Shown: positions 5,143 through 55,776, counted from the first letter of the stretch. The stretch: 64,000 nucleotides of DNA from Escherichia coli (GCA_029351405.1 GCA_029351405.1_4841.1), one strand, 5' to 3'. The notes: generated by a model from the letters alone, not told the origin. Numbers and translations are program-made.

Positions 5143-5149
5143 CTTCACA

Positions 5150-5707: not shown

Positions 5708-5802
5708 GATGTATTTCCTTCTCTTCAGATTGTTGTTTGTTCGTACTACAATTAGAAGTATACGCCAGTTATTGAAGAAGTAAACTTTATTCAATAAATA
5801 TT

Positions 5803-6015
5803 TTAATAAATTTTGAACTCTGCTCCCCTGTACGTCGCCGTCCCTCGTTCTATGAGGCCGTCAGGGACAATTACCTTTGTTGGCCAACCACCATCTGGAG
5901 CCTTAATAGTCAGGCGCGTCTTATGATCACCCAGCTGTGTTTGTTCATAGATCCTTCCGCGTACTATCGTCGCCCCGCCCTGGGTGACAAGCAATCTCTT
6001 GTTTACCACATTCAT
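5803..6015 (-). CDS. hypothetical small protein (70 aa)
   Basis: ORF in the same orientation as its neighbours, bounded by terminator-like hairpins. Confidence 0.4.
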   Translation of the reverse strand: MNVVNKRLLVTQGGATIVRGRIYEQTQLGDHKTRLTIKAPDGGWPTKVIVPDGLIERGTATYRGAEFKIY

Positions 6016-6020
6016 TCCCT

Positions 6021-6052
6021 AAACACCAAAAGAAAGGGGAGTTTCCTCCCCT
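6021..6052 (-). terminator. Intrinsic terminator (minus strand)
   Basis: Hairpin AGGGGAG-(TTTC)-CTCCCCT with a T-run on the minus strand just after the 6058-6648 stop. Confidence 0.55.
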
Positions 6053-6057
6053 TGAAC

Positions 6058-6648
6058 TTATTTCTTCAGATCAGGCCACGCACCAGAGGTCGCAGTAGAC
6101 CCAGCTGGGGGAGCAGACTCAAGATCGGGAGAACCCGACTGAGTAACAACAGTGGGATCTTTCTGTACGACCCGAACCCCAAATTGCTTGAGAGCATCCA
6201 TAGCTTGGGCTTTTCGCCTGTTGCTTTTGTAGTGGTTGTAGCCTTTGATACCGAATGATGCACTAATTGCTGTCAATAACGAATAGGTATACCATTCAGG
6301 TGCGGTATCTAGTGCCTGAAGGCCACCGATTACTGCTTTGATGAAATCCCCTTTATGATACTCACCAGGGAACAGAATCAGTTCCACAACCGGAGCAGTC
6401 ATGACGAGGATGGCGGGTATGGCCAACACGATAGTCCAGAATTCGTCTTTCCAAGACCCGCCGACTTCGGTGATCTTAGACAGCTCCCAATCTGAGGAGG
6501 ACTTGATGGCCTCCAGCTTGACGTCGTGTTTGGCCTGTACAACTTCCCGCTTATATTGGATCAAATCAGTCCCGAGGTTCCAGAGTTGCTTGAGCGCCCC
6601 TGGGATCATACCAACGAGGGGGATTGCCATAATAAACTCCTTGGTCAA
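6058..6648 (-). CDS. hypothetical membrane protein (196 aa)
   Basis: Hydrophobic segments (IPLVGMIPGAL, FWTIVLAIPAILVMTAPVV); divergent from the DNA polymerase gene. Confidence 0.5.
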   Translation of the reverse strand: MTKEFIMAIPLVGMIPGALKQLWNLGTDLIQYKREVVQAKHDVKLEAIKSSSDWELSKITEVGGSWKDEFWTIVLAIPAILVMTAPVVELILFPGEYHKGDFIKAVIGGLQALDTAPEWYTYSLLTAISASFGIKGYNHYKSNRRKAQAMDALKQFGVRVVQKDPTVVTQSGSPDLESAPPAGSTATSGAWPDLKK

Positions 6649-6709
6649 TGAATGGCTCTATGGTTAAATATGCCCACGTGCTAACGGCACGGATAACCTG
6701 GAGAATTAC

Positions 6710-9709
6710 ATGACCGTTTTCTATACGAACGTTGCCCGAAGGGGCAATGACCTGTTGATTCGAATTGCAGATGACATGGGTAATCGCCGTCTGTTGAAAA
6801 AGAAATTCGAACCCACTCTCTATTTACCCACGGTTGACTATTCAAATGTTGAAAAGGTCGGCCTTCTCAATGAACCCCTGGCAGCCAAGCAGTTCCCTTC
6901 CATGCGTGACGCTGATAACTATCTTGAAGAGTACAAGGAAGTCCAGGGTGCTGCCATTTACGGGCAGACCGATTATGCATACCAGTTCATCGCCCATAGC
7001 TTTCCTGGAAAGATTGAGCCGGATTACTCCAACATCCATATTGCTAACCTCGATATCGAAGTATTCTCCGCCGGGTGGAAAGACGGAAAGATGACCAAAG
7101 GTCCATTCCCTCACCCAACTATTGAGCAGCAGACGTTCAAAGGGAATGAGGCGCGCATTCGCCGCTTCCATAAACAAGTGCTGGCCAACCATGACTTTGT
7201 CCGTGAGCACTTCCCTGGTTCTTTCATCAGCAACAACGTCACTGATCAGTTCCCTATCATTGACAGCAACGGCAAGATCACCCAAGACATGAATGCGGCG
7301 TTCCCCATTACCCTGATCCAGCTTCAGGATATGGCGACCAATAAGTTCATGGTCTGGGGTATGCCCTGTGCCAAAGATCGTAACAAATTCGCATACGACA
7401 CCGAAGACAAAGAGATCGGCGGCCTTGAGGTTGTTTATCAGGAGTTCACCACCGAACAAGATCTGCTGCGCTCGTTCCTAGACTTCTGGTCGGAGCGTCA
7501 GTTCGACGGCTGGACAGGCTGGAACATTGAAACGTTCGATAGCCCGTATCTTGTTGAGCGTATGAACCAGGTTCTGGGTGAGGCTGAAACGTCGCGCCTC
7601 AGTCCTTGGGGTATCATTAAGAAGCGTATCATTCGCGATAAGAAGGGCGATATCACGACATATCAGTTCGTGGGCTGTCCTATGCTCGATTATATGCAGA
7701 TCTACAAGAAACACACGTACACCACCCGTGAACGCTACTCTCTTGACTGGATTGCGTATTGTGAGCTGGGTGAGAAGAAGATGGACTACAGTGAGAGCAA
7801 GTCGCTCTTTGATCTGTACTTCAACGACTACTGCAAACACACCCGATATGGTATCAAAGACGTTAAGCTGGTGTGGCGACTTGAACAGAAGCTGCGCCTG
7901 CTCCAGCTGATGTTCGTCCTGGCCTACCGCACCAAGTCCAACTATGAAGACGGTCTGGGCACTGTGGCTCCGTGGCTGGCCATGTGCTACTATCGCCTGT
8001 ACGAGAAGGGGATAGTGCCTAAGATCCAGCGTGTATACGATGGTCCGACCGACTTTGAGGGTGCATACGTCATGGATGTGACACCAGGAATCTACTTCTG
8101 GGTCTTCTCGGAAGATTTGAACTCCCTGTATCCTCACATCATTCAGCAGTACAACCTCGGTCCAGAGACTATCGTTGGCGACAAACACCAGCGCCGTGAG
8201 ATCATTGAGGCTATGTGTGAAGAGCTGGCTGCTCAGATGAATAACATGGCAACGCCGATGCACAAACGTCGGTTGATGAAAGCCCTTCACGACAAGCTGT
8301 TGCGTGCGGTTGACGAACGCCTGCAGGTTGTTGATGAGTTGGTTGCCCTGGGTGAGTTCCACTTTGAAACCCTGCGCCGCTACAACGTGTCGTTCACGCC
8401 GAACGTTCAATTCTTCAGCAACGAGAAGATGTCGTTCCTGTCTGAAATCATGCGTGGTATCTACAGCGACCGTAAAGTAGAGAAAGCCAAGGGTCTGAAA
8501 TACGAGCAGTGGGCTGGTTGGTGTAAAGAGATGTCGAAGGGTGACTTCCATCTTGAGTCTGCCATGAAGTCTCGCTACTATGACCCAGAGTGGTATGAAG
8601 AGCACAAGAACATTGATCTTGATGCCCTGACTGAAGTGATGAAGAAGTGGGAAGATCTGGGTGTTGCTCAAGATACCCTTCAGCAAGGTCTGAAGATCTT
8701 GATGAATGCAGGTTATGGCGCGATCTCAAACGTCTGGTTCAAAGAGTACTTCAACCTCAACATTGCCGAAGCCATCACCACATCCGGTCAGCTGATCAAC
8801 AAGTGGAACAAGCGTTACACTGATGACTATCTGAACAAGCTGTGTGGTACAACAGGCCAGGACTTCGTCATCGCAGGGGATACCGACTCCAACTACATCT
8901 GCATTGAGCGTCTTGTCAAGCAGTTGTGGCCTGATGTTACTGACCATCATGTTATGGTTGATAATATCGACCAATGGATCAAAGACAACTACCAGCCGAA
9001 GACCAATGAGTGGGCACAGCTTCTGTGTAACACCATGAACGGATTTGAACAGCGCATGGTGTGGGAGCGTGAGGTCATTGCGTCAGCCGCTGTCTGGCGA
9101 GCCAAGAAGATGTATGCCATGGCAGTGTACGACAGTGAGGGTATCAAGTACGAGAAGCCGAAGATCAAGTTCAAAGGCCTGGAAGCCCGCAAGTCCACCA
9201 CGCCGGAATGGTGTCGTGAGCGTCTTGTCAAGTGCTATGAGAAGATCCTACTAGGCACCGAAGAGGAAGTGCAGACGCTCATCTCCCAGTACAAAGAGGA
9301 GTACATGAAACTCTCTGTAGACGATATCGCCAAGGCTTCCGGCGTGTCCGACATAGAGAAGTGTGTGGCTGCTGACGGATCGTTCATCTCTGGTGCTCAT
9401 TTTGCTGCCAAGGCTTGTGTGGGCTACAACCGTCTGGTTGAGAAGAACGAAGATCTGGGTCTACCGATGATCGAGTCGGGTGATAAGGTACAGATGGTGT
9501 TGTTGAAGCCAGGCAACCCATTCGGCCAGAATTACTTTGCATATCCTGAGTTCTTCCCTGAGGAGCTTGGTCTGGGTAAATGGGTGGATTATCAGGCGGC
9601 CTTTGAGAAGTCCTTCATTGATCCGATTCAGTCTATCCTCGACGTGGTCGGCTGGTCACACAAGCGCCGTGTGAACCTTCTTGCCATGATGCAAAAGAAG
9701 AAAGGTTGA
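6710..9709 (+). CDS. 43: DNA polymerase, family B (T4 gp43-like)
   Basis: 999 aa; N-terminus KFPSMRDADNYL...ANLDIEV parallels T4 gp43 KFPSMKDARDW...ANCDIEV; motif B KILMNAGYG and motif C GDTDSNY; GGAG RBS. Confidence 0.95.
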   Translation: MTVFYTNVARRGNDLLIRIADDMGNRRLLKKKFEPTLYLPTVDYSNVEKVGLLNEPLAAKQFPSMRDADNYLEEYKEVQGAAIYGQTDYAYQFIAHSFPGKIEPDYSNIHIANLDIEVFSAGWKDGKMTKGPFPHPTIEQQTFKGNEARIRRFHKQVLANHDFVREHFPGSFISNNVTDQFPIIDSNGKITQDMNAAFPITLIQLQDMATNKFMVWGMPCAKDRNKFAYDTEDKEIGGLEVVYQEFTTEQDLLRSFLDFWSERQFDGWTGWNIETFDSPYLVERMNQVLGEAETSRLSPWGIIKKRIIRDKKGDITTYQFVGCPMLDYMQIYKKHTYTTRERYSLDWIAYCELGEKKMDYSESKSLFDLYFNDYCKHTRYGIKDVKLVWRLEQKLRLLQLMFVLAYRTKSNYEDGLGTVAPWLAMCYYRLYEKGIVPKIQRVYDGPTDFEGAYVMDVTPGIYFWVFSEDLNSLYPHIIQQYNLGPETIVGDKHQRREIIEAMCEELAAQMNNMATPMHKRRLMKALHDKLLRAVDERLQVVDELVALGEFHFETLRRYNVSFTPNVQFFSNEKMSFLSEIMRGIYSDRKVEKAKGLKYEQWAGWCKEMSKGDFHLESAMKSRYYDPEWYEEHKNIDLDALTEVMKKWEDLGVAQDTLQQGLKILMNAGYGAISNVWFKEYFNLNIAEAITTSGQLINKWNKRYTDDYLNKLCGTTGQDFVIAGDTDSNYICIERLVKQLWPDVTDHHVMVDNIDQWIKDNYQPKTNEWAQLLCNTMNGFEQRMVWEREVIASAAVWRAKKMYAMAVYDSEGIKYEKPKIKFKGLEARKSTTPEWCRERLVKCYEKILLGTEEEVQTLISQYKEEYMKLSVDDIAKASGVSDIEKCVAADGSFISGAHFAAKACVGYNRLVEKNEDLGLPMIESGDKVQMVLLKPGNPFGQNYFAYPEFFPEELGLGKWVDYQAAFEKSFIDPIQSILDVVGWSHKRRVNLLAMMQKKKG

Positions 9710-9762: not shown

Positions 9763-10113
9763 GTGATTGAAATGAAACTCAATAAGATTCTTCTGGTGTG
9801 CGCTCTGGCTTTCTCTACCACTGCGTGCTCCACCCTTCTGGACGTTGCGTCTACTGTAGACCTTGACGCGCCGACGTTCACCAATGAGCAGGCCGTGTCC
9901 AAGATGGAAGACACTATTAAGGCACATGCAGCACTGGACAACACTACTCCGGGTCCGCTCCAAACTGTCTGCAACTATGACGATTCCATCCAGGAAGACG
10001 AAACTTACCACTGCATCACCTACGTGAAGCAGGCCTCCGTCGTTCTGTATGCAGATTGTACCGAAGAACAGTGTGTTGCTACAGGCTACGATAAAGTTGA
10101 GGAAGACAAATGA
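9763..10113 (+). CDS. putative secreted/lipoprotein (116 aa)
   Basis: Signal-peptide-like N-terminus KILLVCALAFSTTAC with a Cys after the hydrophobic core; alternative start at 9772. Confidence 0.5.
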   Translation: MIEMKLNKILLVCALAFSTTACSTLLDVASTVDLDAPTFTNEQAVSKMEDTIKAHAALDNTTPGPLQTVCNYDDSIQEDETYHCITYVKQASVVLYADCTEEQCVATGYDKVEEDK

Positions 10114-10889
10114 ACAACCTGGTTTGTATCTATGATATGAAATCAAAGGTCGGTGGTCTGTATCGCGTCCTCGTGGATGTTGACCTGACGTTGGTCGACA
10201 GCCTCTCCCCTTGGGTGCAGTGGTTCAACGAAGAGAACATCGCCGCCGCTGCTATCGCTACGGGGGACCATAAGTCATACCAGTTCCAGCCGATTACCAA
10301 AGAGTGTTATATGTCCCATGCTGGCGACCTGGCTATTCTGATGCGTGAACGTGCGCATCCGGCGTGGCTATACCATGAAGTCCAATTGGGGATGCACAAA
10401 CAACGTGTGCCAAGCGGTAACGATCCTATGGATTGGTGGCGTCGCCCTGACTTGTACGCCAAGATGAACCCGCTCCCCGGTGCTTACGAGTTCCTGGTAA
10501 ATCTGAAGGATATCTTGCTTGAAGATTTCGACAATGTTGAATTCATCGCGGTGTCGAAGTGCGAGCCGGAACACGAGCGCAGCAAGCGTCAGTTTGTCTA
10601 TGATAAGTTCCCTGGTATCTTCAACGGGTTTGTCAGCACCGACGAAAAGCATCTGCTGGCTGGCGATGTCCTGATTGATGACAATCCGAAGTATGTTGAG
10701 CCGTGTGGTCTGAACAACATCTTTGTCATCTTTGTTCCTCAGGGCAATTATGAAAAACTGGATCTTTCGAACTCGGAAGATATGCTTTATATTAAACCAG
10801 TAGAAGGCCAGAACCACTTCGACTTCCTGAATCACAATATTATTGAAGTGGTCAATCGCCTGATTAGTCATTATCAATACGTCCGATAG
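10110..10889 (+). CDS. HAD-superfamily hydrolase, 5'(3')-deoxyribonucleotidase-like
   Basis: 259 aa; N-terminal VLVDVDLTLVD matches the HAD DxDxT phosphatase motif; ATGA overlap with the upstream stop. Confidence 0.55.
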   Translation: MNNLVCIYDMKSKVGGLYRVLVDVDLTLVDSLSPWVQWFNEENIAAAAIATGDHKSYQFQPITKECYMSHAGDLAILMRERAHPAWLYHEVQLGMHKQRVPSGNDPMDWWRRPDLYAKMNPLPGAYEFLVNLKDILLEDFDNVEFIAVSKCEPEHERSKRQFVYDKFPGIFNGFVSTDEKHLLAGDVLIDDNPKYVEPCGLNNIFVIFVPQGNYEKLDLSNSEDMLYIKPVEGQNHFDFLNHNIIEVVNRLISHYQYVR

Positions 10890-10898
10890 GAGGACATC

Positions 10899-11204
10899 GT
10901 GCAAGATCAGAATAAGTTCGGGGAAATCCCCGACAAGCGTTCCGGTGATAGCGACATGGATGGCGTGATTAACCATGTGAACAACTTCATTCGCCAGCAG
11001 GAGACTCCGACTCCTATCGGCGCAGCCAAGGCTCTTCATGATGTACTGGTGAAGATCGGCCAGCGCTCTGAAGCGGATGAAATCTTCTATAACTTCGACG
11101 ACCAGTATAAAGTTAAGTTTGAAGAAAACGGTCGTCCGCATGTTGCTGTGTTCTGGGCACCTTGGCTGGGCGGCGTGAGCTGGCGTATTGAGGATGCTGT
11201 GTAA
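10899..11204 (+). CDS. hypothetical protein (101 aa)
   Basis: GTG start preceded by TAGGAGGA RBS. Confidence 0.45.
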   Translation: MQDQNKFGEIPDKRSGDSDMDGVINHVNNFIRQQETPTPIGAAKALHDVLVKIGQRSEADEIFYNFDDQYKVKFEENGRPHVAVFWAPWLGGVSWRIEDAV

Positions 11205-12121
11205 TGGCTAAAATAATTGTAGTGAAGGGAACAAGTGGCGTGGGCAAGGGTACGAGAGTGGTCCAGTTCATCGAATGGCTCCGTACGAAGCTGGAGCCTA
11301 CCGAACTGACCTACACCGTTGGTGACAAGACTCGCCCGTTTGGCCTGAAGTTCGGAGAGCTGAAGTTAATCTTCGTTGGACAGTACACCGTGTCTAACAA
11401 ATCCGGCCTGGCTTCCTGGACTTCAATGGATGCAATCCATGCTGCTACAGGCTCAGGCGATATTGCTCGTGATCTAATCAAGTGCTGGTTGGTTCAGGGA
11501 TACACTCTGGTGTGCGAGGGTGAACCCCTCATGCTGTCGGACAAATGGCGTCCTGAATGGATGTTCAAGAACTATCCGATTGAATCATTGGCGCTGCTGT
11601 ACTTTGCGTACCCCGACCGCTATCAGTACGATGCTCGTATCCGTGGTCGCTCTGGTAAAGAAGCAGGGAACTCCGGCTGGTCGCGCAACGAATCTTACTC
11701 CAAGGAGTTTGAGAAGTCGAAGGCCGAAATGCTGGCGCTGGGCTTCACTGTGGCTGTTGATGATTACAGCGGACAGGATATCCTGTATAAATCACCGAAT
11801 GCCAACACCCAGGAGTTCCTGACCAGCCAGCAGTCAGAGTTGGCGGTACTACCGTTCGACGCCCCGCTTTGGGTGGTGGGTAACGCGATTTGCCATCAGA
11901 TACGGTCCGAACTGCGTGAAGTTAACATGGACACCAAAGACTTTTACGCCTACTGTGAAACCAATCCGATGACCCGTGAGGTCGGCGGTGATGATCCTTT
12001 GGCGCACAGAGTGCCTGAGAAGCCGCAGAAGGCATCCAAAACTAAAACCAAGGCGAGCGCCCAGCCAGAAGTAACGAAGGCAGCGTCGCGCTCTCTCCTT
12101 GACCTGATGAAGAAGGGGTGA
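11204..12121 (+). CDS. P-loop kinase-like protein (candidate nucleotide or DNA-base kinase)
   Basis: 305 aa; N-terminal IVVKGTSGVGKGT glycine-rich P-loop; distinct from the dNMP kinase at 52608-53177. Confidence 0.5.
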   Translation: MAKIIVVKGTSGVGKGTRVVQFIEWLRTKLEPTELTYTVGDKTRPFGLKFGELKLIFVGQYTVSNKSGLASWTSMDAIHAATGSGDIARDLIKCWLVQGYTLVCEGEPLMLSDKWRPEWMFKNYPIESLALLYFAYPDRYQYDARIRGRSGKEAGNSGWSRNESYSKEFEKSKAEMLALGFTVAVDDYSGQDILYKSPNANTQEFLTSQQSELAVLPFDAPLWVVGNAICHQIRSELREVNMDTKDFYAYCETNPMTREVGGDDPLAHRVPEKPQKASKTKTKASAQPEVTKAASRSLLDLMKKG

Positions 12122-12677: not shown

Positions 12678-12843
12678 TTTTATCTTCATGATGCTGATGT
12701 TCGTTATCTTCACGGTATCGCTCGTCGGCGCCATGGTCACAGAAGGGGTTCCACAACGTCCCTTCCTGGTGATTTGTCCTGTATCGATCGCCACTTTCTT
12801 CTATCTGGCGTTCCGTGTTGAATTGGGGAACAAACTCGAATGA
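12658..12843 (+). CDS. small membrane protein (61 aa)
   Basis: Hydrophobic FIFMMLMFVIFTVSLVGAMV; translationally coupled to its neighbours. Confidence 0.4.
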   Translation: MKIKSVDFIFMMLMFVIFTVSLVGAMVTEGVPQRPFLVICPVSIATFFYLAFRVELGNKLE

Positions 12844-14075
12844 CACATCTATCTAAAATGCCGACGGGCTATACGCCCCCGGCTGAATGGAAGTACCCGA
12901 TTGACCTATCTGTTGACTACCGTAAACCTGAGAATCGCATGTACCTGCTCAAGGCTTGGGTGGAGGCGCTGTCCTACACAGAAGAGCACAACCAGCAGAT
13001 GCGTCTGATGGACTATGCGATTGAAGTCACTGAAGGCATCAGCCTCGAACAGAAAGTCGAGCGCAAGATCTGGATGGCATTCCTGTGGGGTTGTTGCTAT
13101 AACGCTGTCGGACCGTGGACGATCTACAGTGAGTTCCCTATGCCACCCCAGTCCAAAGAAGAGATGCAGCGCTTCTCTGATTGGTATAATCTGAACTTTG
13201 AACGCATGCGATTCGATACCGACTGTCGCTACCGCAAGTCCAAGATGATTCCGTGTGTTCAGTCCTATATTGACTGGCTGGCTGGCCGTACTCAATATGA
13301 CGCTTTCCGTGGGATGTTGGTGTGCATCGATAAGACAGAACAATTCACCCAGCTGTGGGACACGGCGATGTCCTGGAAATACTTCGGTCGCCTGAGCGCC
13401 TGGAACTTCCTGGAAGCCCTGAACATGGTCTTCGGGAACGAATACACCATTGACGTCCCTGGCTTCATGCTGCGTGATCGTGATGGAAGCGAGTCCAACC
13501 GTAATGGCGCGGCGTTCTTGTCCAACCGTGACGATTGGGTGACTAAACACGGGAAGAAAAAGATCAACGGTTGCCCTATCACGGATGAAGAGTGTGACAT
13601 CCTTGAGGCCGACCTTGAGCAGGCGTTCCAGGATTGTGTGGCTGAGTTCGGACACCTGACGTTCATCAACCGTCTGAACTTTGAAACCTCCGGTGCTTGT
13701 TGGCTGAAGAAATTCTTCCGACTGAAGAATACCCGTTATATCGGGTGGGACGCAGAGCGTACCTGGGATGAGATAGACTACATGGAACGCGTCTGGCCTG
13801 AATACTCCTGCGCAGCGCTCTGGGAAGCCCGTTCTCTCTGGCTACCAGATACCCTGTTGTGCGAAAAGGCTCCTGCAGGGCACGTTCCAGGCGTCCAGAA
13901 GTGGAAGATGCCTGTGTTCTTTGAGACTGGTGTTCCTCTGCATATCTGGCACCTGCAAAAGGGTACGCGCTGGGAACCATCCGAGGTCTGTACGAACCTG
14001 AAGATGCCTGTGCGCAAGGTTGAGGACAAGTCGAAGTCCAGCAGCGTCAACCTCATGGCACTCTTGAAACGCTGA
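12840..14075 (+). CDS. hypothetical protein (411 aa), candidate DNA-modification enzyme
   Basis: Long ORF overlapping the upstream stop; no catalytic motif recognised by eye; sits downstream of the P-loop kinase. Confidence 0.55.
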   Translation: MTHLSKMPTGYTPPAEWKYPIDLSVDYRKPENRMYLLKAWVEALSYTEEHNQQMRLMDYAIEVTEGISLEQKVERKIWMAFLWGCCYNAVGPWTIYSEFPMPPQSKEEMQRFSDWYNLNFERMRFDTDCRYRKSKMIPCVQSYIDWLAGRTQYDAFRGMLVCIDKTEQFTQLWDTAMSWKYFGRLSAWNFLEALNMVFGNEYTIDVPGFMLRDRDGSESNRNGAAFLSNRDDWVTKHGKKKINGCPITDEECDILEADLEQAFQDCVAEFGHLTFINRLNFETSGACWLKKFFRLKNTRYIGWDAERTWDEIDYMERVWPEYSCAALWEARSLWLPDTLLCEKAPAGHVPGVQKWKMPVFFETGVPLHIWHLQKGTRWEPSEVCTNLKMPVRKVEDKSKSSSVNLMALLKR

Positions 14076-35658: not shown

Positions 35659-35973
35659 ATGACCCCATTAAAAGAAATGTATGAGCGCCTGTCTGAACTA
35701 CAGGCGAAGGAAAAGCGCTTCTCAGAAGAAGAGACAGAGCTGTCCGAGCTGAACAACCTGATCGCCACTCGTGAGAAGTACCTGCAGCGCTACATTAATC
35801 ACCCGCCGCGCATGGTAGACCGCGTCAGCACTATCATGGACCTGGATGAAGTTACTCCTGGCAAAGAAATCATTGTCAGGGAAGTCCACCAGATGGTCGC
35901 CATGGGTCAGATCTTTGGTCGTGCAGACCAAGACGACATGATCTTCCTCCTTGAAAAGAAACTGGTGATGTGA
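35659..35973 (+). CDS. hypothetical protein (104 aa)
   Basis: GAGGAA RBS; stop overlaps the cd start. Confidence 0.45.
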   Translation: MTPLKEMYERLSELQAKEKRFSEEETELSELNNLIATREKYLQRYINHPPRMVDRVSTIMDLDEVTPGKEIIVREVHQMVAMGQIFGRADQDDMIFLLEKKLVM

Positions 35974-36479
35974 TGGCTATCAAACCCCGTATGTTGTTTG
36001 CGCATATGCGCTCGGCTCATGCATACGCTCTGTCCAGCTATGCACAGCGCCTGAAGGTCGGCTGTGTTATCGTTGACCCGCGTGTTGACCAGCCCCTGTC
36101 TATCGGTTGGAACGGGACTGCTCCTGGCGCTCCTAATGTCTGTGAGAAGGAAGTAGACGGTCAACTGGTATCGGTGGGTGTTATCCACGCCGAGGAGAAT
36201 GCTCTGAGCAAACTCCCCCAGCACACTGAAGACTGTTGTGGCCTGGTGATGTTTGTCACTCATAGCCCATGCCCAGAGTGCACCCGTCGTATTATCGACA
36301 GTGGCAAGATCGCTAAAGTGTTCTATGACCGACCATATCGTATCATAGACGGTATTATTGAAATGCTGGCTGCTGGAATTGAAGTATATCGCATGGTCGA
36401 TCAGTTTGTTGTAGTCCAGCATTCTGTGAAGAACGGCGAACTGGTATCCACCCCTGTTTTAGTGAACCCTGACAAATAA
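35970..36479 (+). CDS. cd: deoxycytidylate (dCMP) deaminase
   Basis: 169 aa; zinc-binding motifs HAEENA and PCPEC of the cytidine/deoxycytidylate deaminase family. Confidence 0.8.
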   Translation: MMAIKPRMLFAHMRSAHAYALSSYAQRLKVGCVIVDPRVDQPLSIGWNGTAPGAPNVCEKEVDGQLVSVGVIHAEENALSKLPQHTEDCCGLVMFVTHSPCPECTRRIIDSGKIAKVFYDRPYRIIDGIIEMLAAGIEVYRMVDQFVVVQHSVKNGELVSTPVLVNPDK

Positions 36480-50137: not shown

Positions 50138-50467
50138 CTACCCCACCAAAAATTTATTATATTCCTGAGCATTACGCTGCATGAGGTCTACAAGGATATC
50201 CCCTGACACCTCAGTGAACAAGTCATTTTCTTTCAAATTCACAAACATCAGACGCAATGGTTTCTTCAATATATCAGTCACGAAAGACAGGCGGGGTTCG
50301 CCGTCCACTTCGTTGATGGCCACCTTGCCGAACCGGAATTGAACACCACGGAATTTGCCAGAAGTGATCTTGATGATCGCCAGCTGATCAGCACCAGGGT
50401 CGATGATTGTGTAGTTATTGGGGGAGTCTCCTCCCCCTCCACTGTTATTCGCTTGTGTTAATAACAT
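50138..50467 (-). CDS. hypothetical protein (109 aa from internal Met)
   Basis: Lies between the helicase and UvsX; start uncertain (50467 or 50518), so it overlaps the uvsX 3' end. Confidence 0.4.
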   Translation of the reverse strand: MLLTQANNSGGGGDSPNNYTIIDPGADQLAIIKITSGKFRGVQFRFGKVAINEVDGEPRLSFVTDILKKPLRLMFVNLKENDLFTEVSGDILVDLMQRNAQEYNKFLVG

Positions 50468-51530
50468 GGTCCATTTGCTCCAGCATGTTAGCAGGCATAA
50501 CAGTACCGTTAGAAACACCGAACATTTTCTTCACGTCATCGGCGAAGTTGACATTCTCCAGCAGCGGATACCAGAAATCATCACCCATCTGACGCTTCTG
50601 ATATTTCTTTTCCTTCTCAGGATCGAAACCACCCTTGGCTGTACGCACATACCAGCCGGAAGACGGCATATCAACATAACCCAGAGCACGAGCGATCTCA
50701 AGCAGGCCGCTCCAGCGATCAATACCACCGTTGTACAGTACCGTCACAGGGAGCTTGGCTTTCTCTTTGACATGGCGACCTTTCATGATGCTTATGTTGA
50801 AGTTCCAGCCCAGCAGATCTTTGTCTTCCTTCACCTGAGAACGGGTGATAAACCAGATCAAGTTGGATGATAAGAAGCCCTGCTTGCCGCCTTTGATGTT
50901 AGGCTCGGCATACTGGTTGCCGATCTCATCGTAATAGGAGTTGATCCAAACACACACGAGATTTTTGCTGTTGATTTCAGGAGTCATGACACGCCAGAAG
51001 CTGTTGAGGGCACGGGCGCGGGTCATGTCTTGAGTGTCGTTCCCTTTGATCGCATCTTCAACTTCCTTGGTGGAGGGAAGTTGGCTGATAGAGTCGATGA
51101 AGATTATAACATGGTCGCCTTTCTTGACTTCCTGTAGGATCTGCAGCAAGCGGATCTTGGTCTGTTCAACGTTGTCGATCGGTACGTACAGGACGCGGTC
51201 CATGTCAATGCCCATAGAGGTCCAGTAATCAGCGTTGGCACCCTTTTCCGAGTCAGCAAATACACAGATAGCATCAGGGAACTTGTCCATATAAGCCTTG
51301 ACGTCCACCAGACCGAACATCGTTTTGAAGGTACGGGAATCACCCACCATCATCTTGATACCGGAGATCAGGCCGCCGTCAATACGCCCAGACCATGCGA
51401 TGTCGATCAGGGGAATACCAGTAGAACATATGATAGACGGTTCCAGAGCGTCTGATTGGGACAGTACTGAAGCCTGGTCGTCATGTTTCTTGGCAACCTT
51501 CAGCATGCGGTCCATTAATGAACTGGCCAT
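50445..51530 (-). CDS. uvsX: UvsX recombinase (RecA-like)
   Basis: 361 aa; IPLIDIAWSGRIDGG...MVGDSRTFKTMFGL...PDAICVFADSE parallels T4 UvsX IPMMNIALSGEITGG...LAGPSKSFKSNFGL...PDAVCLFYDSE. Confidence 0.9.
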   Translation of the reverse strand: MASSLMDRMLKVAKKHDDQASVLSQSDALEPSIICSTGIPLIDIAWSGRIDGGLISGIKMMVGDSRTFKTMFGLVDVKAYMDKFPDAICVFADSEKGANADYWTSMGIDMDRVLYVPIDNVEQTKIRLLQILQEVKKGDHVIIFIDSISQLPSTKEVEDAIKGNDTQDMTRARALNSFWRVMTPEINSKNLVCVWINSYYDEIGNQYAEPNIKGGKQGFLSSNLIWFITRSQVKEDKDLLGWNFNISIMKGRHVKEKAKLPVTVLYNGGIDRWSGLLEIARALGYVDMPSSGWYVRTAKGGFDPEKEKKYQKRQMGDDFWYPLLENVNFADDVKKMFGVSNGTVMPANMLEQMDHVINTSE

Positions 51531-52057
51531 TTCACTTCCTCTTTGTTGTTAATCGTCGTTAGTAAGTCTACACCCATAACCTTCTGGGACAAAATGTTAA
51601 CCGCCTCTTGGATGCTCTTCAGGGACATTGTCTCAACAAGCGACGATGCGTCATTATGCCGGTCGGTTAGGTACATATTGCGCAGATTGTTGTAGTTCGT
51701 GCGGTTGATGCACGCAGTGTTCAGTGCTATATTCAGGATATACATTATCTGTTCAATGGTTACATCCTTTGGCATAGCGTGGATGTAATAGATCGAGCCT
51801 TCAAAATAGACGTCTACCAGTTCATCTGGTATCTTGATGCCACCACTGGCATACTCTTCGATCATTCTGAACAGAGACTCTGGTTGCTCGCTGGCGATCT
51901 TATGCGTAACAGTCGCCGAAAGACCGTCGCCCGGTTTAACAGGCCTGTTGTATTCAGTAAGGAATACATTATGGCCGCCGCCGATGATGTGCTCGGCGAA
52001 TTTGGAGGATGCCTGAGCAGCGTTCTCCGCATGGTATGAAACGACGACTGTAAACAT
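51515..52057 (-). CDS. hypothetical protein (180 aa)
   Basis: Occupies the slot between uvsX and the nucleotide-metabolism genes where T4 has beta-glucosyltransferase; no glycosyltransferase motif seen. Confidence 0.5.
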   Translation of the reverse strand: MFTVVVSYHAENAAQASSKFAEHIIGGGHNVFLTEYNRPVKPGDGLSATVTHKIASEQPESLFRMIEEYASGGIKIPDELVDVYFEGSIYYIHAMPKDVTIEQIMYILNIALNTACINRTNYNNLRNMYLTDRHNDASSLVETMSLKSIQEAVNILSQKVMGVDLLTTINNKEEVKWPVH

Positions 52058-52611
52058 TAGAACTCCAGGGTCAGAGGGGTTTCTGCGGACTTGTCGTAAT
52101 CCGCGCCACCAGAAGCACGCAGACGATTGCGATCGTTCTTGCGCTTGTGCGCCAGTATGTAAGTCTCAATGTCGATCTCCATATAAGAACACGCAGACGA
52201 CAGGAAGAACATGAGAGTCTCAACGCAAGGATCGTTCATGAATTGCCCAAGGCGGTACGTAACATTGCGATGCCTTGCAACACCCAAAGCAGGTGGGGTG
52301 AATTCGCGATTACTGAGGACTTCAAATTCTTCTTCGATCTCGCCTTTGGTGCGGTCCACAAGGATGAAGCACAACATGAAGTGTACCACGTCCACCAGTT
52401 CATAAACTGCGTTCGTATGGTCAAACCCGATGTCGTTGCCATAGACCTTCCAGTCACGGGTGGTTTCATCAAGGAACTCTGCCCACTCACGATAGATAGA
52501 GTTGATGACTGCGTTCTGACTCCATACATTCTTCCACTCTTCCCCAAAGTAGGCCACGTTAGTGGCCTTTTGGAGTTCGAGCAGGCTTTTGATATGCCCT
52601 GCTGTGATCAT
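52057..52611 (-). CDS. dCTP/dUTP pyrophosphatase-like protein (T4 gp56-like)
   Basis: 184 aa; AVYELVDVVHFMLCFIL parallels T4 gp56 IKFELVDIFHFVLNMLV. Confidence 0.55.
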   Translation of the reverse strand: MITAGHIKSLLELQKATNVAYFGEEWKNVWSQNAVINSIYREWAEFLDETTRDWKVYGNDIGFDHTNAVYELVDVVHFMLCFILVDRTKGEIEEEFEVLSNREFTPPALGVARHRNVTYRLGQFMNDPCVETLMFFLSSACSYMEIDIETYILAHKRKNDRNRLRASGGADYDKSAETPLTLEF

Positions 52612-53177
52612 TTACGTTCTCCGTAGAATTTAACGAACGGTTCCCAACCATCAAATGGATTGAGGAATTCGTAGTCCACTTTCATTTGGTCAATGAAAGC
52701 CTCTATATCGTCCTCTATGATACCAGCACGATCAGCCTTTGAAATACGGGTGATAGGGCATTTCGTACTCAGCGCCCATTCATATTCCTGAGGGGTACGC
52801 AGATCGCTCACGATATAATGGACGTGGGGGTTCTGCTCTACCAGAGGAAGCTGGAAGCGCTTGAAGAATGCCAGGAACAGATCGGGTTGTACGTAACGCA
52901 AGCCCGTATCGCTGCCTAGATGAAGCCAGATCTGCCGGGGAGTTAAGCCCTTGGGGTTATCAGGGTGCACGTAAGGAACGTCCTTCACGGCATCCTCTAC
53001 CTCCGCTGGTAGCCATGGATAGATGAAGTTGGCAACCCGGCGCAGTTCATCTGAGAACGAAAGGCGCTGGATATCCATATCACCCTGTAGATGGTGATAG
53101 CTGATGAGGGACTCCAAACAGAAGTCCTTACCGGAGCGCTTGCGCCCCGTAAAGAATTCAAGATTTGGGTACATCAT
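52608..53177 (-). CDS. 1: deoxynucleoside monophosphate kinase (T4 gp1-like)
   Basis: 189 aa; P-loop FTGRKRSGKDF parallels T4 gp1 LSGVKRSGKDT. Confidence 0.7.
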   Translation of the reverse strand: MMYPNLEFFTGRKRSGKDFCLESLISYHHLQGDMDIQRLSFSDELRRVANFIYPWLPAEVEDAVKDVPYVHPDNPKGLTPRQIWLHLGSDTGLRYVQPDLFLAFFKRFQLPLVEQNPHVHYIVSDLRTPQEYEWALSTKCPITRISKADRAGIIEDDIEAFIDQMKVDYEFLNPFDGWEPFVKFYGERK

Positions 53178-54220
53178 ACTACACCTTCCAGGAACTTAGG
53201 ATCAACGATCTTGCGGTCAACCGGGGAATGGGTGAGCGCGGCGTTCAATCCATGATCCTGAATCAGGTCCAGGTTAATGAGCTTGTTATTCAATTTGCAG
53301 TGCAGGCAGTATGCCATCTGCACAATCAGACCGCGATCCGCATCATACTCCTTCAGGAAGGCAACAACAGTTTCCCAAGGACTACCGAAGTCACAATGAA
53401 CAAGCACGCCAGTGAACAGATCGCGGATATGGTTCTGGTTGGTCACGTTCGTGAAGTGGATCATGGAGTTGATGAACCCAGCTTCTACTTTGGTGTCCTT
53501 CGTGATCTTGCCCAGCTGCTTCTGGCTGACTTCATTGTTGTAGTAATGAAGATTGTTGGAGAAGAGCTTGTACTGGCCGACGTCAACATCCAACACCCGA
53601 GCAATCACTTCCTGAAGAATAGAGAACTCAATGAAGTTGATTGAACTCATACCCCACAGAACATCCTGTGAGCGATTGATAACCGTCAGGTTCAGGCGAC
53701 CTTCAACGATGGCGAACAACAGAGCCAGGTTACACACCATGTCCTTGGTCTTTGCTTCGCCACTCTCACTGAACTTCGCCAGACCAGCATCTGAATCCAG
53801 AGCCGGATCATAGATGGTGAGGTACGCCTGGCGAGTGTTTGGATTCTTGCGCAGGCGGTTGATGACGCTATCCAGCTGGCCATGGGCGTACAGACGCGGA
53901 CCATAAGCGGCTCGCCATGTGTGGCCGTTGTCGGAAAAGTTGGCGGCGCGGGGCAACACGCGGGACAGGAAGCGAACGTCATCGCGCCCGGACAGAACCC
54001 AGAAGGTCTCGCCGATGGCGGCGATAGCCGATGAGTTACGACCTTCAACGGATAGCCAGCGGTCACGGATGTCGGCGACGGTTATGGTCACGCCATCAAG
54101 GAAGCGGGTGCTATCAGTATTGATTTCAGCATTACCAGGATCAGATTCGATCCCGAATTCACGGATAGCCAAGACAGCCTGTTTCAGCATGTCATTGTTG
54201 TTTATTGCTTTGATTTCCAT
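53174..54220 (-). CDS. thymidylate synthase-family pyrimidine hydroxymethylase (dCMP or dUMP hydroxymethylase)
   Basis: 348 aa; RQAYLTIYDP and KDMVCNLALLF...INRSQDVLWG align with the TS/gp42 phosphate-binding Arg and catalytic Cys...RSxD region; about 100 aa longer than T4 gp42. Confidence 0.7.
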   Translation of the reverse strand: MEIKAINNNDMLKQAVLAIREFGIESDPGNAEINTDSTRFLDGVTITVADIRDRWLSVEGRNSSAIAAIGETFWVLSGRDDVRFLSRVLPRAANFSDNGHTWRAAYGPRLYAHGQLDSVINRLRKNPNTRQAYLTIYDPALDSDAGLAKFSESGEAKTKDMVCNLALLFAIVEGRLNLTVINRSQDVLWGMSSINFIEFSILQEVIARVLDVDVGQYKLFSNNLHYYNNEVSQKQLGKITKDTKVEAGFINSMIHFTNVTNQNHIRDLFTGVLVHCDFGSPWETVVAFLKEYDADRGLIVQMAYCLHCKLNNKLINLDLIQDHGLNAALTHSPVDRKIVDPKFLEGVV

Positions 54221-54891
54221 CAGATACTCCCAAAATCACGACAGAGGAATGCCATCACAGCCTGGTCTACTGTTAGGCCGTGAGACTTCATCATACCCGC
54301 AGCCACCGTAGGGAACAAGTCTTTATGTCGTTGACGATGGTCATGAACTCTCTCCCACTTCTCGACCACCAGACTTTCATTGAAATCCACACCGCCGTTG
54401 CGTGATTTAACGCGGGTGATACACGTTTCAAGAGGAGTGTCCATAAAGAGCACAACCAATTCACGTGGTGGGCGTGTCAGGCGGGGGATCCAAGAACTCA
54501 ATAATGTGGATGGAATGATACCTTCGAAAATCACATCATATTTCAAGTATTCTGGTTGGTCAGCAATAGACAACGCGAACAACATCTGCTCAGTGTCCTT
54601 CAGGGAATCAACCCCCTTGGACTTCGACTTGTCATATTTACCGATACAGACCACGTTGAACGAAGGACAGACAGTCAGCATGACCTTGCCGTTATGGGTC
54701 ACGACATACGCCTGAGGATCCCTCTCCGCCAGCTGAGACGGCACAGTGGATTTACCGCTACCATTGGAGCCTTTGACGTAGTAGATTTGCCCTCGTGCTG
54801 GGTATATCCCCTTCACAACAGGTGGTTTAAAGAATGTGTGGACGGGGCGCTTCATCAGCCCCTTCAGGGAGTAGGACATAGACTGCTCCAA
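54220..54891 (-). CDS. P-loop NTPase, kinase-like (223 aa)
   Basis: Walker A GSNGSGKST; kinase-sized; directly upstream of the hydroxymethylase in the same operon. Confidence 0.5.
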   Translation of the reverse strand: MEQSMSYSLKGLMKRPVHTFFKPPVVKGIYPARGQIYYVKGSNGSGKSTVPSQLAERDPQAYVVTHNGKVMLTVCPSFNVVCIGKYDKSKSKGVDSLKDTEQMLFALSIADQPEYLKYDVIFEGIIPSTLLSSWIPRLTRPPRELVVLFMDTPLETCITRVKSRNGGVDFNESLVVEKWERVHDHRQRHKDLFPTVAAGMMKSHGLTVDQAVMAFLCRDFGSI

Positions 54892-54920
54892 TAAACAAAA
54901 GGAGCTGCTATTATAGCAGC
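54890..54920 (-). terminator. Intrinsic terminator (minus strand)
   Basis: Hairpin GCTGCTA-(TTA)-TAGCAGC with T-run TTTTGTTTATT on the minus strand after the 54955-55776 stop. Confidence 0.55.
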
Positions 54921-54954
54921 CCCTTCATCTATTGAACAGTTTCTGAACTTAAAT

Positions 54955-55776
54955 TTACACAGCTTTCGCTTCAGCCAGAGCCTGTGGAAGCCATTCATTG
55001 ATCGCCTTAACCAGAGACTCAGCATCAGACTCTTTGATCTTCTGACGTTTGGTGAAGGACTTGCCGTTTACGTACAGACTGAAGCCCCAGCCACCGGAAA
55101 CGATAGGCGCAACGTCGACATACGTATTGGTGCGGGCGTGAAGGTTTTCAGGGTTAGCCAGTTCGGTGACCGGGAACTGGAACCAACGCATGTCTGGGTT
55201 CACGTAGCTCAGGAACACGCCGGGGACAACACCAGCTTCAATCGCCGCCAAGACCGGACCGTGATTAGAAGCGCGAGCCAAGTCAACCATTTCCTCACGT
55301 TTGGTGTGACGGCGTTTACGCTCTACCAGCGCTGCCTGCGGGGTCAGGGTCTTACCCTTCGATGCTTCTTTCAACATAGAAGACGCCAAGGAGCCGATTT
55401 TCGCGTCGGACGGCTGATTGCCTTCTTCCAGCGCCGCGTTGACTGCATCTTGAACCGCGTCTACTGGGGCTTCACAAGCATCGGCAGAGATCGGTGCTTC
55501 AGCATCAACGGTTTCAGCGACTTTCAGGGATACTTCAGCTTGGGCTTGCTCTTGGGCTTGCGCCAGAGCCTGCTGAGTTTCTTCCTTCTCTTCGGCGCTC
55601 AGACCTTCAATCAGTTCGAAGCCGTTGGCAGCCTGAAGAACACCTTCAACCATACGGCGCAGGGTAACGTTTCCGATGATCAGACCTGCTTCTTTGATTT
55701 CAGCCTGAATAGCAGCAACGTCTTTGCCTTCAATTTCAATTTTGGTTCCAGAATCCACATGAAGAATATATGACAT
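54955..55776 (-). CDS. hypothetical protein (273 aa) with Ala/Glu/Gln-rich central linker
   Basis: Long ORF; low-complexity AEEKEETQQALAQAQEQAQAE linker between two globular-looking halves. Confidence 0.5.
   Translation of the reverse strand: MSYILHVDSGTKIEIEGKDVAAIQAEIKEAGLIIGNVTLRRMVEGVLQAANGFELIEGLSAEEKEETQQALAQAQEQAQAEVSLKVAETVDAEAPISADACEAPVDAVQDAVNAALEEGNQPSDAKIGSLASSMLKEASKGKTLTPQAALVERKRRHTKREEMVDLARASNHGPVLAAIEAGVVPGVFLSYVNPDMRWFQFPVTELANPENLHARTNTYVDVAPIVSGGWGFSLYVNGKSFTKRQKIKESDAESLVKAINEWLPQALAEAKAV

What the first reader, a model, noticed from the sequence alone, without database searches (positions are those of the whole stretch)
52057..54891. Nucleotide-modification operon: dCTPase-like, dNMP kinase, TS-family hydroxymethylase and an extra P-loop kinase
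Four co-oriented overlapping genes encode a gp56-like pyrophosphatase, a gp1-like dNMP kinase, a thymidylate-synthase-fold hydroxymethylase about 100 aa longer than T4 gp42, and a second Walker-A kinase (GSNGSGKST) with no T4 counterpart at this position. The gene that sits between uvsX and this operon (51515-52057) shows no glycosyltransferase motif, whereas T4 has beta-glucosyltransferase in that slot. The residue that sets cytosine versus uracil specificity in this fold (Asp in gp42, Asn in TS) aligns ambiguously here, near ...GMSSINF. The phage may therefore carry a hydroxymethyl-pyrimidine that is decorated by phosphorylation rather than glucosylation.
Basis: partly seen in the sequence, partly recalled or inferred. 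Interest (0 to 1): 0.65.

Follow-up and report, generated by a model that had tools for sequence, protein, structure and literature searches.

The report
Known thymidine hypermodification genes of ViI-like phage
The four overlapping genes are the front end of the already characterised pathway by which ViI-like (Ackermannviridae) phages make 5-hydroxymethyl-uracil DNA, phosphorylate it and swap the phosphate for an aminoethoxy group, so the locus is real but ordinary for this phage family.

Summary
Four translationally coupled minus-strand genes at 52057-54891 encode a dUTPase_2-family pyrophosphatase, a dNMP-kinase-like protein, a thymidylate-synthase-fold hydroxymethylase (348 aa) and a P-loop kinase.

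The window comes from an Aglimvirinae phage, 99.1% identical to Escherichia phage AV101 here. The operon is syntenic with Salmonella phage ViI orf63-67.

- **The "extra" kinase.** It matches Pfam PF18748, 5-hmdU DNA kinase (E 1.7e-108), and is 88% identical to ViI gp67, whose activity is proven.
- **The hydroxymethylase.** It has the catalytic Cys163. Asn195 is invariant in the phiW-14, SPO1-like and M6-like dUMP hydroxymethylases compared, and the loop has no Asp. It therefore reads as uracil-specific, not cytosine-specific.
- **The rest of the pathway is in the same window.** This covers kinase 2 (11204-12121), the serine:DNA transferase (12840-14075) and the PLP decarboxylase (3315-4508), each 85-91% identical to ViI gp243, gp247 and gp226.

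The hydroxymethyl base is phosphorylated on DNA, but the base is hmU, not hmC. The phosphate is a leaving group, replaced by serine and then decarboxylated to 5-NeOmdU (Lee et al. 2018, 2021).

Verdict: already known, low interest.

The parts
54220..54879 (-). 5-hydroxymethyl-dU DNA kinase (5-HMUDK, ViI gp67 orthologue). The longest ORF runs to a TTG at 54891, but the probable start is the ATG at 54879.
   Evidence: Pfam PF18748 HMUDK_HMUD1, E 1.7e-108. 88% identity to ViI gp67 YP_004327432. Walker A GSNGSGKST at residues 37-45. gp67 activity shown in PMC8989533.
53174..54220 (-). dUMP hydroxymethyltransferase of the thymidylate-synthase superfamily (348 aa; catalytic Cys163, specificity Asn195; C-terminal extension from about residue 240 to 348).
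   Evidence: Pfam PF00303, E 1.5e-15. phrog_3676, E 7.7e-181. 74% identity to ViI orf66. 30-40% identity over the catalytic domain to the phiW-14, SPO1-like and M6-like enzymes. Asn195 is invariant in those enzymes. hhalign to E. coli ThyA gives 98.5% probability with N195 opposite N177. NCBIfam TS equivalogs score far below cut-off (56 against 327 bits).
52608..53177 (-). dNMP-kinase-like P-loop protein (189 aa). Inferred role: converts 5-hmdUMP to 5-hmdUDP.
   Evidence: phrog_139 deoxynucleoside monophosphate kinase, E 1.8e-47. 92% identity to ViI orf65 'dnk'. Shares the GxKRSGKD P-loop with T4 gp1 but does not hit gp1's Pfam family PF21448. The same gene follows the hydroxymethylase in phiW-14.
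52057..52611 (-). All-alpha dUTPase_2-family nucleoside triphosphate pyrophosphatase (184 aa). Inferred role: converts dUTP to dUMP, which feeds the hydroxymethylase and keeps dU out of DNA.
   Evidence: Pfam PF08761, E 6.3e-9. phrog_173, E 4.1e-40. Best PDB hit is the C. jejuni dimeric dUTPase 1w2y, E 0.0013. 61% identity to ViI orf63. T4 gp56 hits the same Pfam family.
51515..52057 (-). ACT-like domain protein of unknown role, translationally coupled between the dUTPase gene and uvsX.
   Evidence: Pfam PF24021 ACT_phage, E 2.6e-79. 56% identity to ViI orf62. No PDB relative. No similarity to T4 beta-glucosyltransferase.
54898..54926 (-). Terminator-like hairpin with a T-run, just upstream of the kinase gene. 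It separates the operon from the preceding gene (54955-55776).
   Evidence: Pattern scan: 13-bp stem with 6 GC pairs, followed by TGTTTATT. This is a consensus match only.
11204..12121 (+). Second 5-hmdU DNA kinase (HMUD2, ViI gp243 orthologue).
   Evidence: Pfam PF18747, E 3.5e-157. 85% identity to gp243. gp243 activity reported in PMC8989533.
12840..14075 (+). Amino acid:DNA transferase (aGPT-Pplase2, ViI gp247 orthologue). It transfers serine onto 5-phosphomethyl-dU.
   Evidence: Pfam PF18724 ADDT, E 9.8e-60. 90% identity to gp247 over 411 aa. gp247 biochemistry reported in PMC8989533.
3315..4508 (+). PLP-dependent decarboxylase (ViI gp226 orthologue). It converts O-serinyl-thymidine to 5-NeOmdU.
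   Evidence: 91% identity to gp226. Pfam PALP, E 3.9e-7, 30.1 bits, below the 35-bit gathering score. gp226 activity reported in PMC8989533.
35970..36479 (+). dCMP deaminase, a probable additional source of dUMP (context only).
   Evidence: Pfam PF00383, E 4.3e-16. Annotated 'Cd allosteric enzyme' in AV101.
10110..10889 (+). NT5C-like 5'-deoxynucleotidase next to kinase 2. It may shape the pyrimidine nucleotide pool; its role has not been shown.
   Evidence: Pfam PF06941, E 9.9e-9. 76% identity to ViI orf239.

Best explanation
The locus is the pre-replicative half, plus the first post-replicative step, of the ViI-type thymidine hypermodification pathway of Ackermannviridae phages.

Proposed steps, with what is shown and what is inferred:
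1. The dUTPase_2-family enzyme makes dUMP, helped by the dCMP deaminase at 35970-36479. Inferred.
2. The TS-fold enzyme uses Cys163 and methylene-tetrahydrofolate to make 5-hydroxymethyl-dUMP, with Asn195 reading uracil. The family assignment is shown here; the chemistry is inferred from the family.
3. The dNMP-kinase-like protein and host NDP kinase raise it to 5-hmdUTP, and the phage B-family polymerase incorporates it in place of dTTP. Inferred.
4. On the DNA, the P-loop kinase (gp67 orthologue) and its paralogue at 11204-12121 transfer the ATP gamma-phosphate to the 5-hydroxymethyl group, giving 5-PmdU. Shown for the 85-88% identical ViI enzymes.
5. The transferase at 12840-14075 displaces the phosphate with the serine hydroxyl. 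Shown for the 90% identical ViI enzyme.
6. The PLP enzyme at 3315-4508 decarboxylates the product to 5-(2-aminoethoxy)methyl-dU. Shown for the 91% identical ViI enzyme.

The modification replaces part of the thymidines and blocks many restriction endonucleases.
For: - **Kinase.** Pfam 5-hmdU DNA kinase, E 1.7e-108, and 88% identity to ViI gp67.
- **Synteny.** ViI has the identical order uvsX-orf62-dUTPase-dnk-thyA-orf67. All five operon proteins are 56-92% identical to their ViI counterparts.
- **Downstream enzymes.** HMUD2, ADDT and the PLP enzyme lie in the same window, at 85%, 90% and 91% identity to gp243, gp247 and gp226.
- **Published biochemistry.** The activities of gp67, gp243, gp247 and gp226 are reported in PMC8989533. 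Reconstitution of 5-NeOmdU is reported in PMC5889632.
- **Uracil specificity.** Asn195 is invariant across the phiW-14, SPO1-like and M6-like dUMP hydroxymethylases. It aligns with ThyA Asn177.
- **Wider conservation.** phiW-14 has the same hydroxymethylase-dNMP kinase-dUTPase-x-UvsX order.
- **Fifth ViI protein.** The nearest relative, AV101, also carries the gp160 homologue (81% identity, PF18723).
- **Family-wide reports.** A review states that the modification genes are conserved across Ackermannviridae (PMC11721090). LC-MS found 5-NeOmdU in another E. coli Ackermannviridae phage (bioRxiv 10.64898/2026.05.19.726188).
Against: - No chemistry has been done on this phage or on any Aglimvirinae member that I could find. 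The final product is inferred from 85-91% identity to ViI enzymes.
- The substrates of the dUTPase_2 and dNMP-kinase-like proteins are untested even in ViI.
- The hydroxymethylase loop is one residue longer than in ThyA or gp42. The placement of Asn195 therefore rests on family conservation, not on a structure; the single-sequence AlphaFold model failed with pLDDT 33.
- The PLP enzyme scores below Pfam's gathering threshold.
- The gp160 homologue lies outside the window.
Confidence: 0.9

Rival explanations
1. The pathway machinery is the same, but this Aglimvirinae phage installs a different final group or a different fraction or sequence context than ViI. Examples would be retaining O-serinyl-thymidine or using another amino acid.
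For: The transferase and decarboxylase are 90-91% identical to the ViI enzymes, not identical. The substituted fraction already varies between relatives: about 40% in ViI and CBA120 against 16% in phiHS2. The hydroxymethylase C-terminal domain, the dUTPase and the ACT protein are strongly diverged from ViI.
Against: Identity of 90% over the full length usually preserves substrate choice. All five ViI proteins have orthologues in this lineage. The review states conservation across the family.
Confidence: 0.06
2. One reading: the hydroxymethyl-pyrimidine stays phosphorylated in the mature virion DNA, so phosphate is the terminal decoration in place of glucose.
For: The kinase is real and does phosphorylate the hydroxymethyl group.
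Against: The window also encodes the transferase that displaces the phosphate and the decarboxylase that follows it. According to PMC8989533, mature ViI DNA contains no 5-hmdU, which is converted before packaging to the hypermodified base or to thymine. 5-PmdU appears in that work only as the kinase product that the transferase consumes.
Confidence: 0.02
3. A T4-like cytosine pathway: the TS-fold enzyme is a dCMP hydroxymethylase and the pyrophosphatase is a dCTPase, giving hmC DNA.
For: Both the window protein and T4 gp56 hit Pfam dUTPase_2. The best PDB sequence hit of the hydroxymethylase is the CMP hydroxymethylase MilA, E 8e-18. An ungapped hhalign against gp42 puts Ile194, not Asn, opposite Asp179.
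Against: There is no Asp anywhere in the specificity loop GMSSINF. Asn195 is invariant in the enzymes of phages known to make hmdU. BLASTP finds no significant similarity to gp42 (best match 11 residues, E 3.2), and gp42 structures were not among the 60 listed PDB hits (69 matched at E up to 0.01). The orthologue sits in ViI, whose DNA carries modified T. A dCMP deaminase is encoded in the window, which would drain dCMP.
Confidence: 0.01
4. Ordinary housekeeping genes, as many database records annotate them: thymidylate synthase, thymidylate kinase or 'terminase small subunit', and dUTPase.
For: GenBank and RefSeq annotations of relatives carry these labels. phrog_800 is labelled 'terminase small subunit'.
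Against: NCBIfam TS equivalog scores are 56 bits or less against cut-offs of 108-427 bits. The kinase hits the dedicated 5-hmdU DNA kinase family at E 1.7e-108. ViI has a separate true small terminase next to its large terminase. The gp67 activity has been demonstrated.
Confidence: 0.01

Closest known systems
Salmonella phage ViI (Kuttervirus) 5-NeOmdU thymidine hypermodification pathway (Lee et al. 2018, PMC5889632; Lee et al. 2021, PMC8989533)
   Same: Gene order is identical: uvsX-ACT-dUTPase-dnk-hydroxymethylase-kinase. gp67, gp243, gp247 and gp226 have orthologues at 88%, 85%, 90% and 91% identity, and the Pfam families are the same.
   Different: The phage belongs to a different subfamily (Aglimvirinae, not Cvivirinae). 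The hydroxymethylase C-terminal domain is only 45% identical to ViI's, and the dUTPase and ACT-like proteins are 55-61% identical. No chemical analysis of this phage's DNA is available.
Delftia phage phiW-14 alpha-putrescinylthymine pathway
   Same: It has the same cassette and order: hydroxymethylase (357 aa), dNMP kinase, dUTPase_2, a small ORF, then UvsX. It also uses a 5-HMUDK and an aGPT-Pplase2.
   Different: Identity over the hydroxymethylase catalytic domain is only about 40%. In phiW-14 the kinase is not adjacent to the hydroxymethylase. The nucleophile is putrescine, not serine, and no PLP enzyme or second kinase was detected there (Table 3).
T4 hmC pathway (gp56 dCTPase, gp42 dCMP hydroxymethylase, gp1 dNMP kinase, alpha- and beta-glucosyltransferases)
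   Same: The logic is the same: a pool-clearing pyrophosphatase, a TS-fold hydroxymethylase, a dNMP kinase and a post-replicative decoration. The TS-fold gene lies near uvsX in both. gp56 and the window protein both hit Pfam dUTPase_2.
   Different: The specificity residue is Asn195, not Asp179, so the substrate is uracil rather than cytosine. The decoration goes by phosphorylation and amino-acid transfer, not glucosylation. There is no significant pairwise similarity to gp42, gp56 or beta-gt. The kinase-like protein is not in gp1's Pfam family.
MilA CMP 5-hydroxymethylase (PDB 5b6d/5jnh)
   Same: It is the closest solved structure by sequence (E 8e-18 over residues 43-243). It is a TS-fold hydroxymethylase and is longer than TS (325 aa).
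   Different: MilA acts on CMP and has Asp in the specificity loop (GAVSD), where the phage enzyme has GMSSIN. It works in antibiotic biosynthesis, not in a DNA precursor pathway.

Membership tests
ViI-type thymidine hypermodification (5-NeOmdU) system | TS-superfamily dUMP hydroxymethyltransferase with the catalytic Cys and a uracil-reading Asn | tested here: met
   PF00303, E 1.5e-15. Cys163 and Asn195 are invariant in alignments with the ViI, phiW-14, SPO1-like and M6-like enzymes. N195 aligns with ThyA N177.
ViI-type thymidine hypermodification (5-NeOmdU) system | 5-hmdU DNA kinase (P-loop, Pfam HMUDK_HMUD1) | tested here: met
   PF18748, E 1.7e-108, covering the full profile. 88% identity to ViI gp67.
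ViI-type thymidine hypermodification (5-NeOmdU) system | Second kinase paralogue (HMUD2, gp243) | tested here: met
   PF18747, E 3.5e-157, at 11204-12121. 85% identity to gp243.
ViI-type thymidine hypermodification (5-NeOmdU) system | Amino acid:DNA transferase (aGPT-Pplase2/ADDT, gp247) | tested here: met
   PF18724, E 9.8e-60, at 12840-14075. 90% identity to gp247.
ViI-type thymidine hypermodification (5-NeOmdU) system | PLP-dependent decarboxylase (gp226) | tested here: met
   91% identity over 394 aa to gp226. The Pfam PALP hit is below the gathering score (30.1 against 35 bits).
ViI-type thymidine hypermodification (5-NeOmdU) system | aGPT-Pplase1 / HMUDK_hel protein (gp160) | tested here: inconclusive
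   It is not in the window. It is present in the nearest relative AV101 at the syntenic site (81% identity to gp160; PF18723, E 2.6e-79).
ViI-type thymidine hypermodification (5-NeOmdU) system | Virion DNA contains 5-NeOmdU in place of part of dT | not testable with these tools
   This needs nucleoside LC-MS. It has been shown for ViI and CBA120 and for phiHS2, but not for this phage.
T4-type hydroxymethylcytosine/glucosylation system | Asp at the pyrimidine-specificity position of the TS-fold enzyme (gp42 Asp179) | tested here: not met
   The loop reads GMSSINF and has no Asp. The candidates are Ile194 and Asn195.
T4-type hydroxymethylcytosine/glucosylation system | DNA glucosyltransferase | tested here: not met
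   The slot next to uvsX holds an ACT_phage protein with no similarity to beta-gt. No glycosyltransferase family appeared among the 36 window proteins scanned against Pfam (35, plus the dCMP deaminase). None is annotated in AV101 in 31-74 kb or 92-116 kb. The whole genome was not scanned.
Thymidylate synthase (ThyA) proper | Score above the NCBIfam equivalog cut-off for thymidylate synthase | tested here: not met
   The best hit is 56.6 bits against a 327-bit cut-off.
T4 gp1-type dNMP kinase (Pfam DNMK PF21448) | Match to the DNMK family profile | tested here: not met
   T4 gp1 hits PF21448 at E 3e-107. The window protein does not hit it at E <= 0.01. Only the GxKRSGKD P-loop aligns. It does belong to phrog_139, 'dNMP kinase'.

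The most novel reading that the evidence does not exclude
The strongly diverged members of the cassette might tune the pathway differently in Aglimvirinae than in ViI. These are the ACT-like ligand-binding protein coupled between the dUTPase gene and uvsX, the hydroxymethylase C-terminal domain, and the dUTPase_2 protein. For example, an amino-acid-sensing ACT protein could regulate flux to hmdUTP. Alternatively the final base, or the still unknown hmdU-to-thymine conversion, could involve one of these uncharacterised proteins.
Probability: 0.06. Interest if true: 0.45.

Novelty: already known. Interest (0 to 1): 0.1.

Why it matters
The finding matters little as a discovery. The pathway was predicted computationally (Iyer et al. 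2013, cited in PMC8989533) and reconstituted biochemically for phage ViI (PMC5889632, PMC8989533). Reviews state that it is conserved across Ackermannviridae (PMC11721090).

Its practical value is in annotation:
- Many records, including RefSeq, label the 5-hmdU DNA kinase as 'terminase small subunit' or 'thymidylate kinase'.
- The same records label the dUMP hydroxymethylase as 'thymidylate synthase'.
- Anyone using this phage should expect 5-NeOmdU-modified DNA. Such DNA resists many restriction enzymes, and I would expect it (from general knowledge, not tested here) to disturb nanopore base-calling as well.

Tried and rejected
- **Single-sequence AlphaFold2 model of the hydroxymethylase.** It gave pLDDT 33.3 and pTM 0.25 and was unusable, so no fold search was run. 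An MSA-based model would have needed a large database search, which I judged not worth the cost because the verdict would not change.
- **PDB sequence searches.** These were uninformative for the dNMP-kinase-like protein (only E 0.81), the 5-HMUDK (only P-loop matches to ABC ATPases), the ACT-like protein (no hits) and the transferase (no hits).
- **Direct BLASTP against T4 proteins.** The window proteins showed no meaningful similarity to T4 gp42, gp56 or beta-gt.
- **NCBIfam.** It gave nothing above cut-off for any pathway protein.
- **Promoter scan.** Promoter-like sites in the region are no more frequent than in shuffled sequence (9 against 6.9 +/- 2.7), so no operon promoter is claimed.
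- **Rejected readings.** I rejected a T4-like hmC pathway, a bona fide ThyA with thymidylate kinase, and terminal phosphorylation. The reasons are given under the rival explanations.

Full report
**What is in the sequence**

The minus strand of 50.4-54.9 kb carries a run of translationally coupled genes (junctions read):
- uvsX, 50445-51530.
- A 180-aa gene, 51515-52057.
- A 184-aa gene, 52057-52611.
- A 189-aa gene, 52608-53177.
- A 348-aa gene, 53174-54220.
- A P-loop gene, 54220-54891.

The junctions are ATGA overlaps at 52608-52611 and 53174-53177, and single-base stop/start overlaps at 52057 and 54220.

The longest ORF of the last gene starts at a TTG (54891). Three things point instead to the ATG at 54879, giving 219 aa: a GGAG six bases upstream, the AV101 annotation, and the alignment with ViI gp67 starting at residue 5.

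A terminator-like hairpin (54926-54898) precedes the operon.

**Where the window comes from**

Megablast of 51500-54900 finds 267 phage records, all but a few in Ackermannviridae. The best is Escherichia phage AV101 (Aglimvirinae), 99.1% identical over the whole query. G+C content is about 49% throughout the window.

**Identity of the four proteins**

- **The "extra" Walker-A kinase.** It matches Pfam PF18748, '5-hmdU DNA kinase', end to end at E 1.7e-108. It is 88% identical to Salmonella phage ViI YP_004327432, known as gp67. The 2021 paper shows that gp67 produces the same phosphorylated 5-hmdU nucleotide as the reference kinase M6 gp54, which transfers the gamma-phosphate of ATP to 5-hydroxymethyl-dU in DNA (PMC8989533).
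- **The 348-aa protein.** It belongs to the thymidylate-synthase superfamily (PF00303, E 1.5e-15; hhalign to E. coli ThyA 98.5%). It falls far below every NCBIfam thymidylate-synthase cut-off (56 against 327 bits). It is 74% identical to ViI orf66. Over the catalytic domain it is 30-40% identical to the hydroxymethylases of phiW-14, SPO1-like and M6-like phages, all hmdU producers.
- **The 184-aa protein.** It is a dUTPase_2-family all-alpha pyrophosphatase (PF08761, E 6e-9; phrog_173, E 4e-40). Its best PDB relative is a dimeric dUTPase. T4 gp56 hits the same Pfam family but shows no meaningful pairwise similarity (one 17-residue match, E 0.005).
- **The 189-aa protein.** It belongs to phrog_139, 'dNMP kinase' (E 1.8e-47), and shares the GxKRSGKD P-loop with T4 gp1. 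It does not match gp1's Pfam family.
- **The 180-aa gene next to uvsX.** It is a Pfam 'phage ACT-like domain' protein (E 2.6e-79), not a glycosyltransferase.

**The specificity residue**

The loop reads RSQDVLWG-MSSIN-F and is one residue longer than in ThyA (G-LPFN177) or gp42 (G-FRND179).

- hhalign against gp42, without a gap, puts Ile194 opposite Asp179.
- HMMER and hhalign against ThyA open a one-residue gap and put Asn195 opposite Asn177.

The family view settles the matter. In an alignment with the ViI, phiW-14, SPO1-like and M6-like enzymes, the G-x4-N spacing is shared and Asn195 is invariant, as are Cys163 (the catalytic Cys, ThyA C146), Arg183, Ser184, Asp186, His225 and Tyr227. There is no Asp in the loop, so the enzyme reads as a dUMP hydroxymethylase.

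The roughly 100-aa C-terminal extension is not peculiar to this phage. The phiW-14, SPO1-like and M6-like enzymes are 357, 383 and 351 aa, and MilA, the closest solved structure (E 8e-18), is 325 aa.

**The rest of the pathway is in the same window**

Pfam scans of other ORFs found the following (identities):
- HMUD2, '5-hmdU DNA kinase 2', at 11204-12121: E 3.5e-157, 85% identical to ViI gp243.
- ADDT, 'amino acid:DNA transferase', at 12840-14075: E 9.8e-60, 90% identical to gp247.
- A PLP-dependent enzyme at 3315-4508: 91% identical to gp226.

In ViI, gp247 transfers serine onto 5-PmdU to give O-serinyl-thymidine, and gp226 decarboxylates it to 5-(2-aminoethoxy)methyl-dU. A mixture of gp67, gp160, gp226, gp243 and gp247 reconstitutes the native base.

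The fifth protein, gp160, lies outside the window. It has an 81% identical homologue (PF18723) at the syntenic place in AV101.

The window also holds a dCMP deaminase (35970-36479) and an NT5C-like deoxynucleotidase (10110-10889). These fit a pool-shaping role.

**Mechanism**

1. dUTP is converted to dUMP by the pyrophosphatase, and dCMP to dUMP by the deaminase. Inferred.
2. dUMP is hydroxymethylated. The family assignment is shown here; the chemistry is inferred from the family.
3. The product is phosphorylated to the triphosphate and incorporated into DNA. Inferred.
4. The two DNA kinases phosphorylate the hydroxymethyl group on the polymer. Shown for the ViI orthologues.
5. Serine displaces the phosphate. 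Shown for the ViI orthologue.
6. PLP-dependent decarboxylation gives 5-NeOmdU. Shown for the ViI orthologue.

According to PMC8989533, mature ViI DNA contains no 5-hmdU. It is converted to the hypermodified base or to thymine before packaging.

**Comparison with what is known, and verdict**

Gene order and content match ViI exactly. phiW-14 even shares the hydroxymethylase-dNMP kinase-dUTPase-x-UvsX order. The 2018 paper already notes that 5-HMUDK co-associates with the dUMP hydroxymethyltransferase.

A 2024 review states that the modification genes are conserved across Ackermannviridae. A 2026 preprint confirmed 5-NeOmdU by LC-MS in another E. coli Ackermannviridae phage. A genome paper on the related phage SW16-7, 91% identical at this locus, lists the same genes.

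The finding is therefore a correct recognition of a real modification operon, but an already known one. Phosphorylation of the hydroxymethyl base does occur, but on uracil, on the polymer, and as a leaving-group activation rather than as the final decoration.

**Remaining uncertainty**

- No chemistry exists for this particular phage.
- The substrates of the pyrophosphatase and the dNMP-kinase-like protein are untested.
- The placement of Asn195 has no structural confirmation, because the single-sequence AlphaFold model failed.

Noticed in passing
window 53174-54220 (also 51515-52611): The cassette is mosaic. The hydroxymethylase is 94% identical to that of Kuttervirus SFP10 but only 74% identical to that of Kuttervirus ViI. 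Residues 241-348 are 45% identical to ViI against 85% to SFP10. The dUTPase_2 and ACT-like proteins are 55-61% identical to ViI, while the flanking kinase and dNMP kinase are 88-92%. This suggests gene or domain exchange between Ackermannviridae subfamilies.
   Followed up: partly
window 54220-54879; ViI YP_004327432: RefSeq and PHROG (phrog_800) label the 5-hmdU DNA kinase 'terminase small subunit', and other records call it thymidylate kinase. ViI has a separate true small terminase next to its large terminase (Vi01_162c). This is a propagated mis-annotation.
   Followed up: partly
window 51515-52057: An ACT-like domain protein (PF24021) of unknown function is translationally coupled between the dUTPase gene and uvsX. 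It is conserved in ViI (56% identity) and has no PDB relative. phiW-14 has only a 76-aa ORF at this position.
   Followed up: partly
window 10110-10889: An NT5C-like 5'-deoxypyrimidine nucleotidase homologue lies between the DNA polymerase and the second 5-hmdU DNA kinase (Pfam E 9.9e-9; 76% identical to ViI orf239). It may be a nucleotidase that shapes the dTMP or dUMP pool; no role has been published that I found.
   Followed up: no
L005 (phiW-14) 2911-6443: phiW-14 has the same gene order as Ackermannviridae, namely hydroxymethylase, dNMP kinase, dUTPase_2, a small ORF, then UvsX, even though the proteins share only about 40% identity. This points to an old, conserved hmdU precursor cassette.
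   Followed up: partly
window 1257-2230: A cluster of four tRNA genes (Met, Asn, Tyr, Ser) lies just upstream of the PLP decarboxylase gene.
   Followed up: no
L011 (AV101) 5646-8161: The nearest relative, AV101, carries nicotinamide phosphoribosyltransferase and ribose-phosphate pyrophosphokinase genes, an NAD+ reconstitution module. The review notes that these vary among Agtrevirus phages. They lie outside this window.
   Followed up: no
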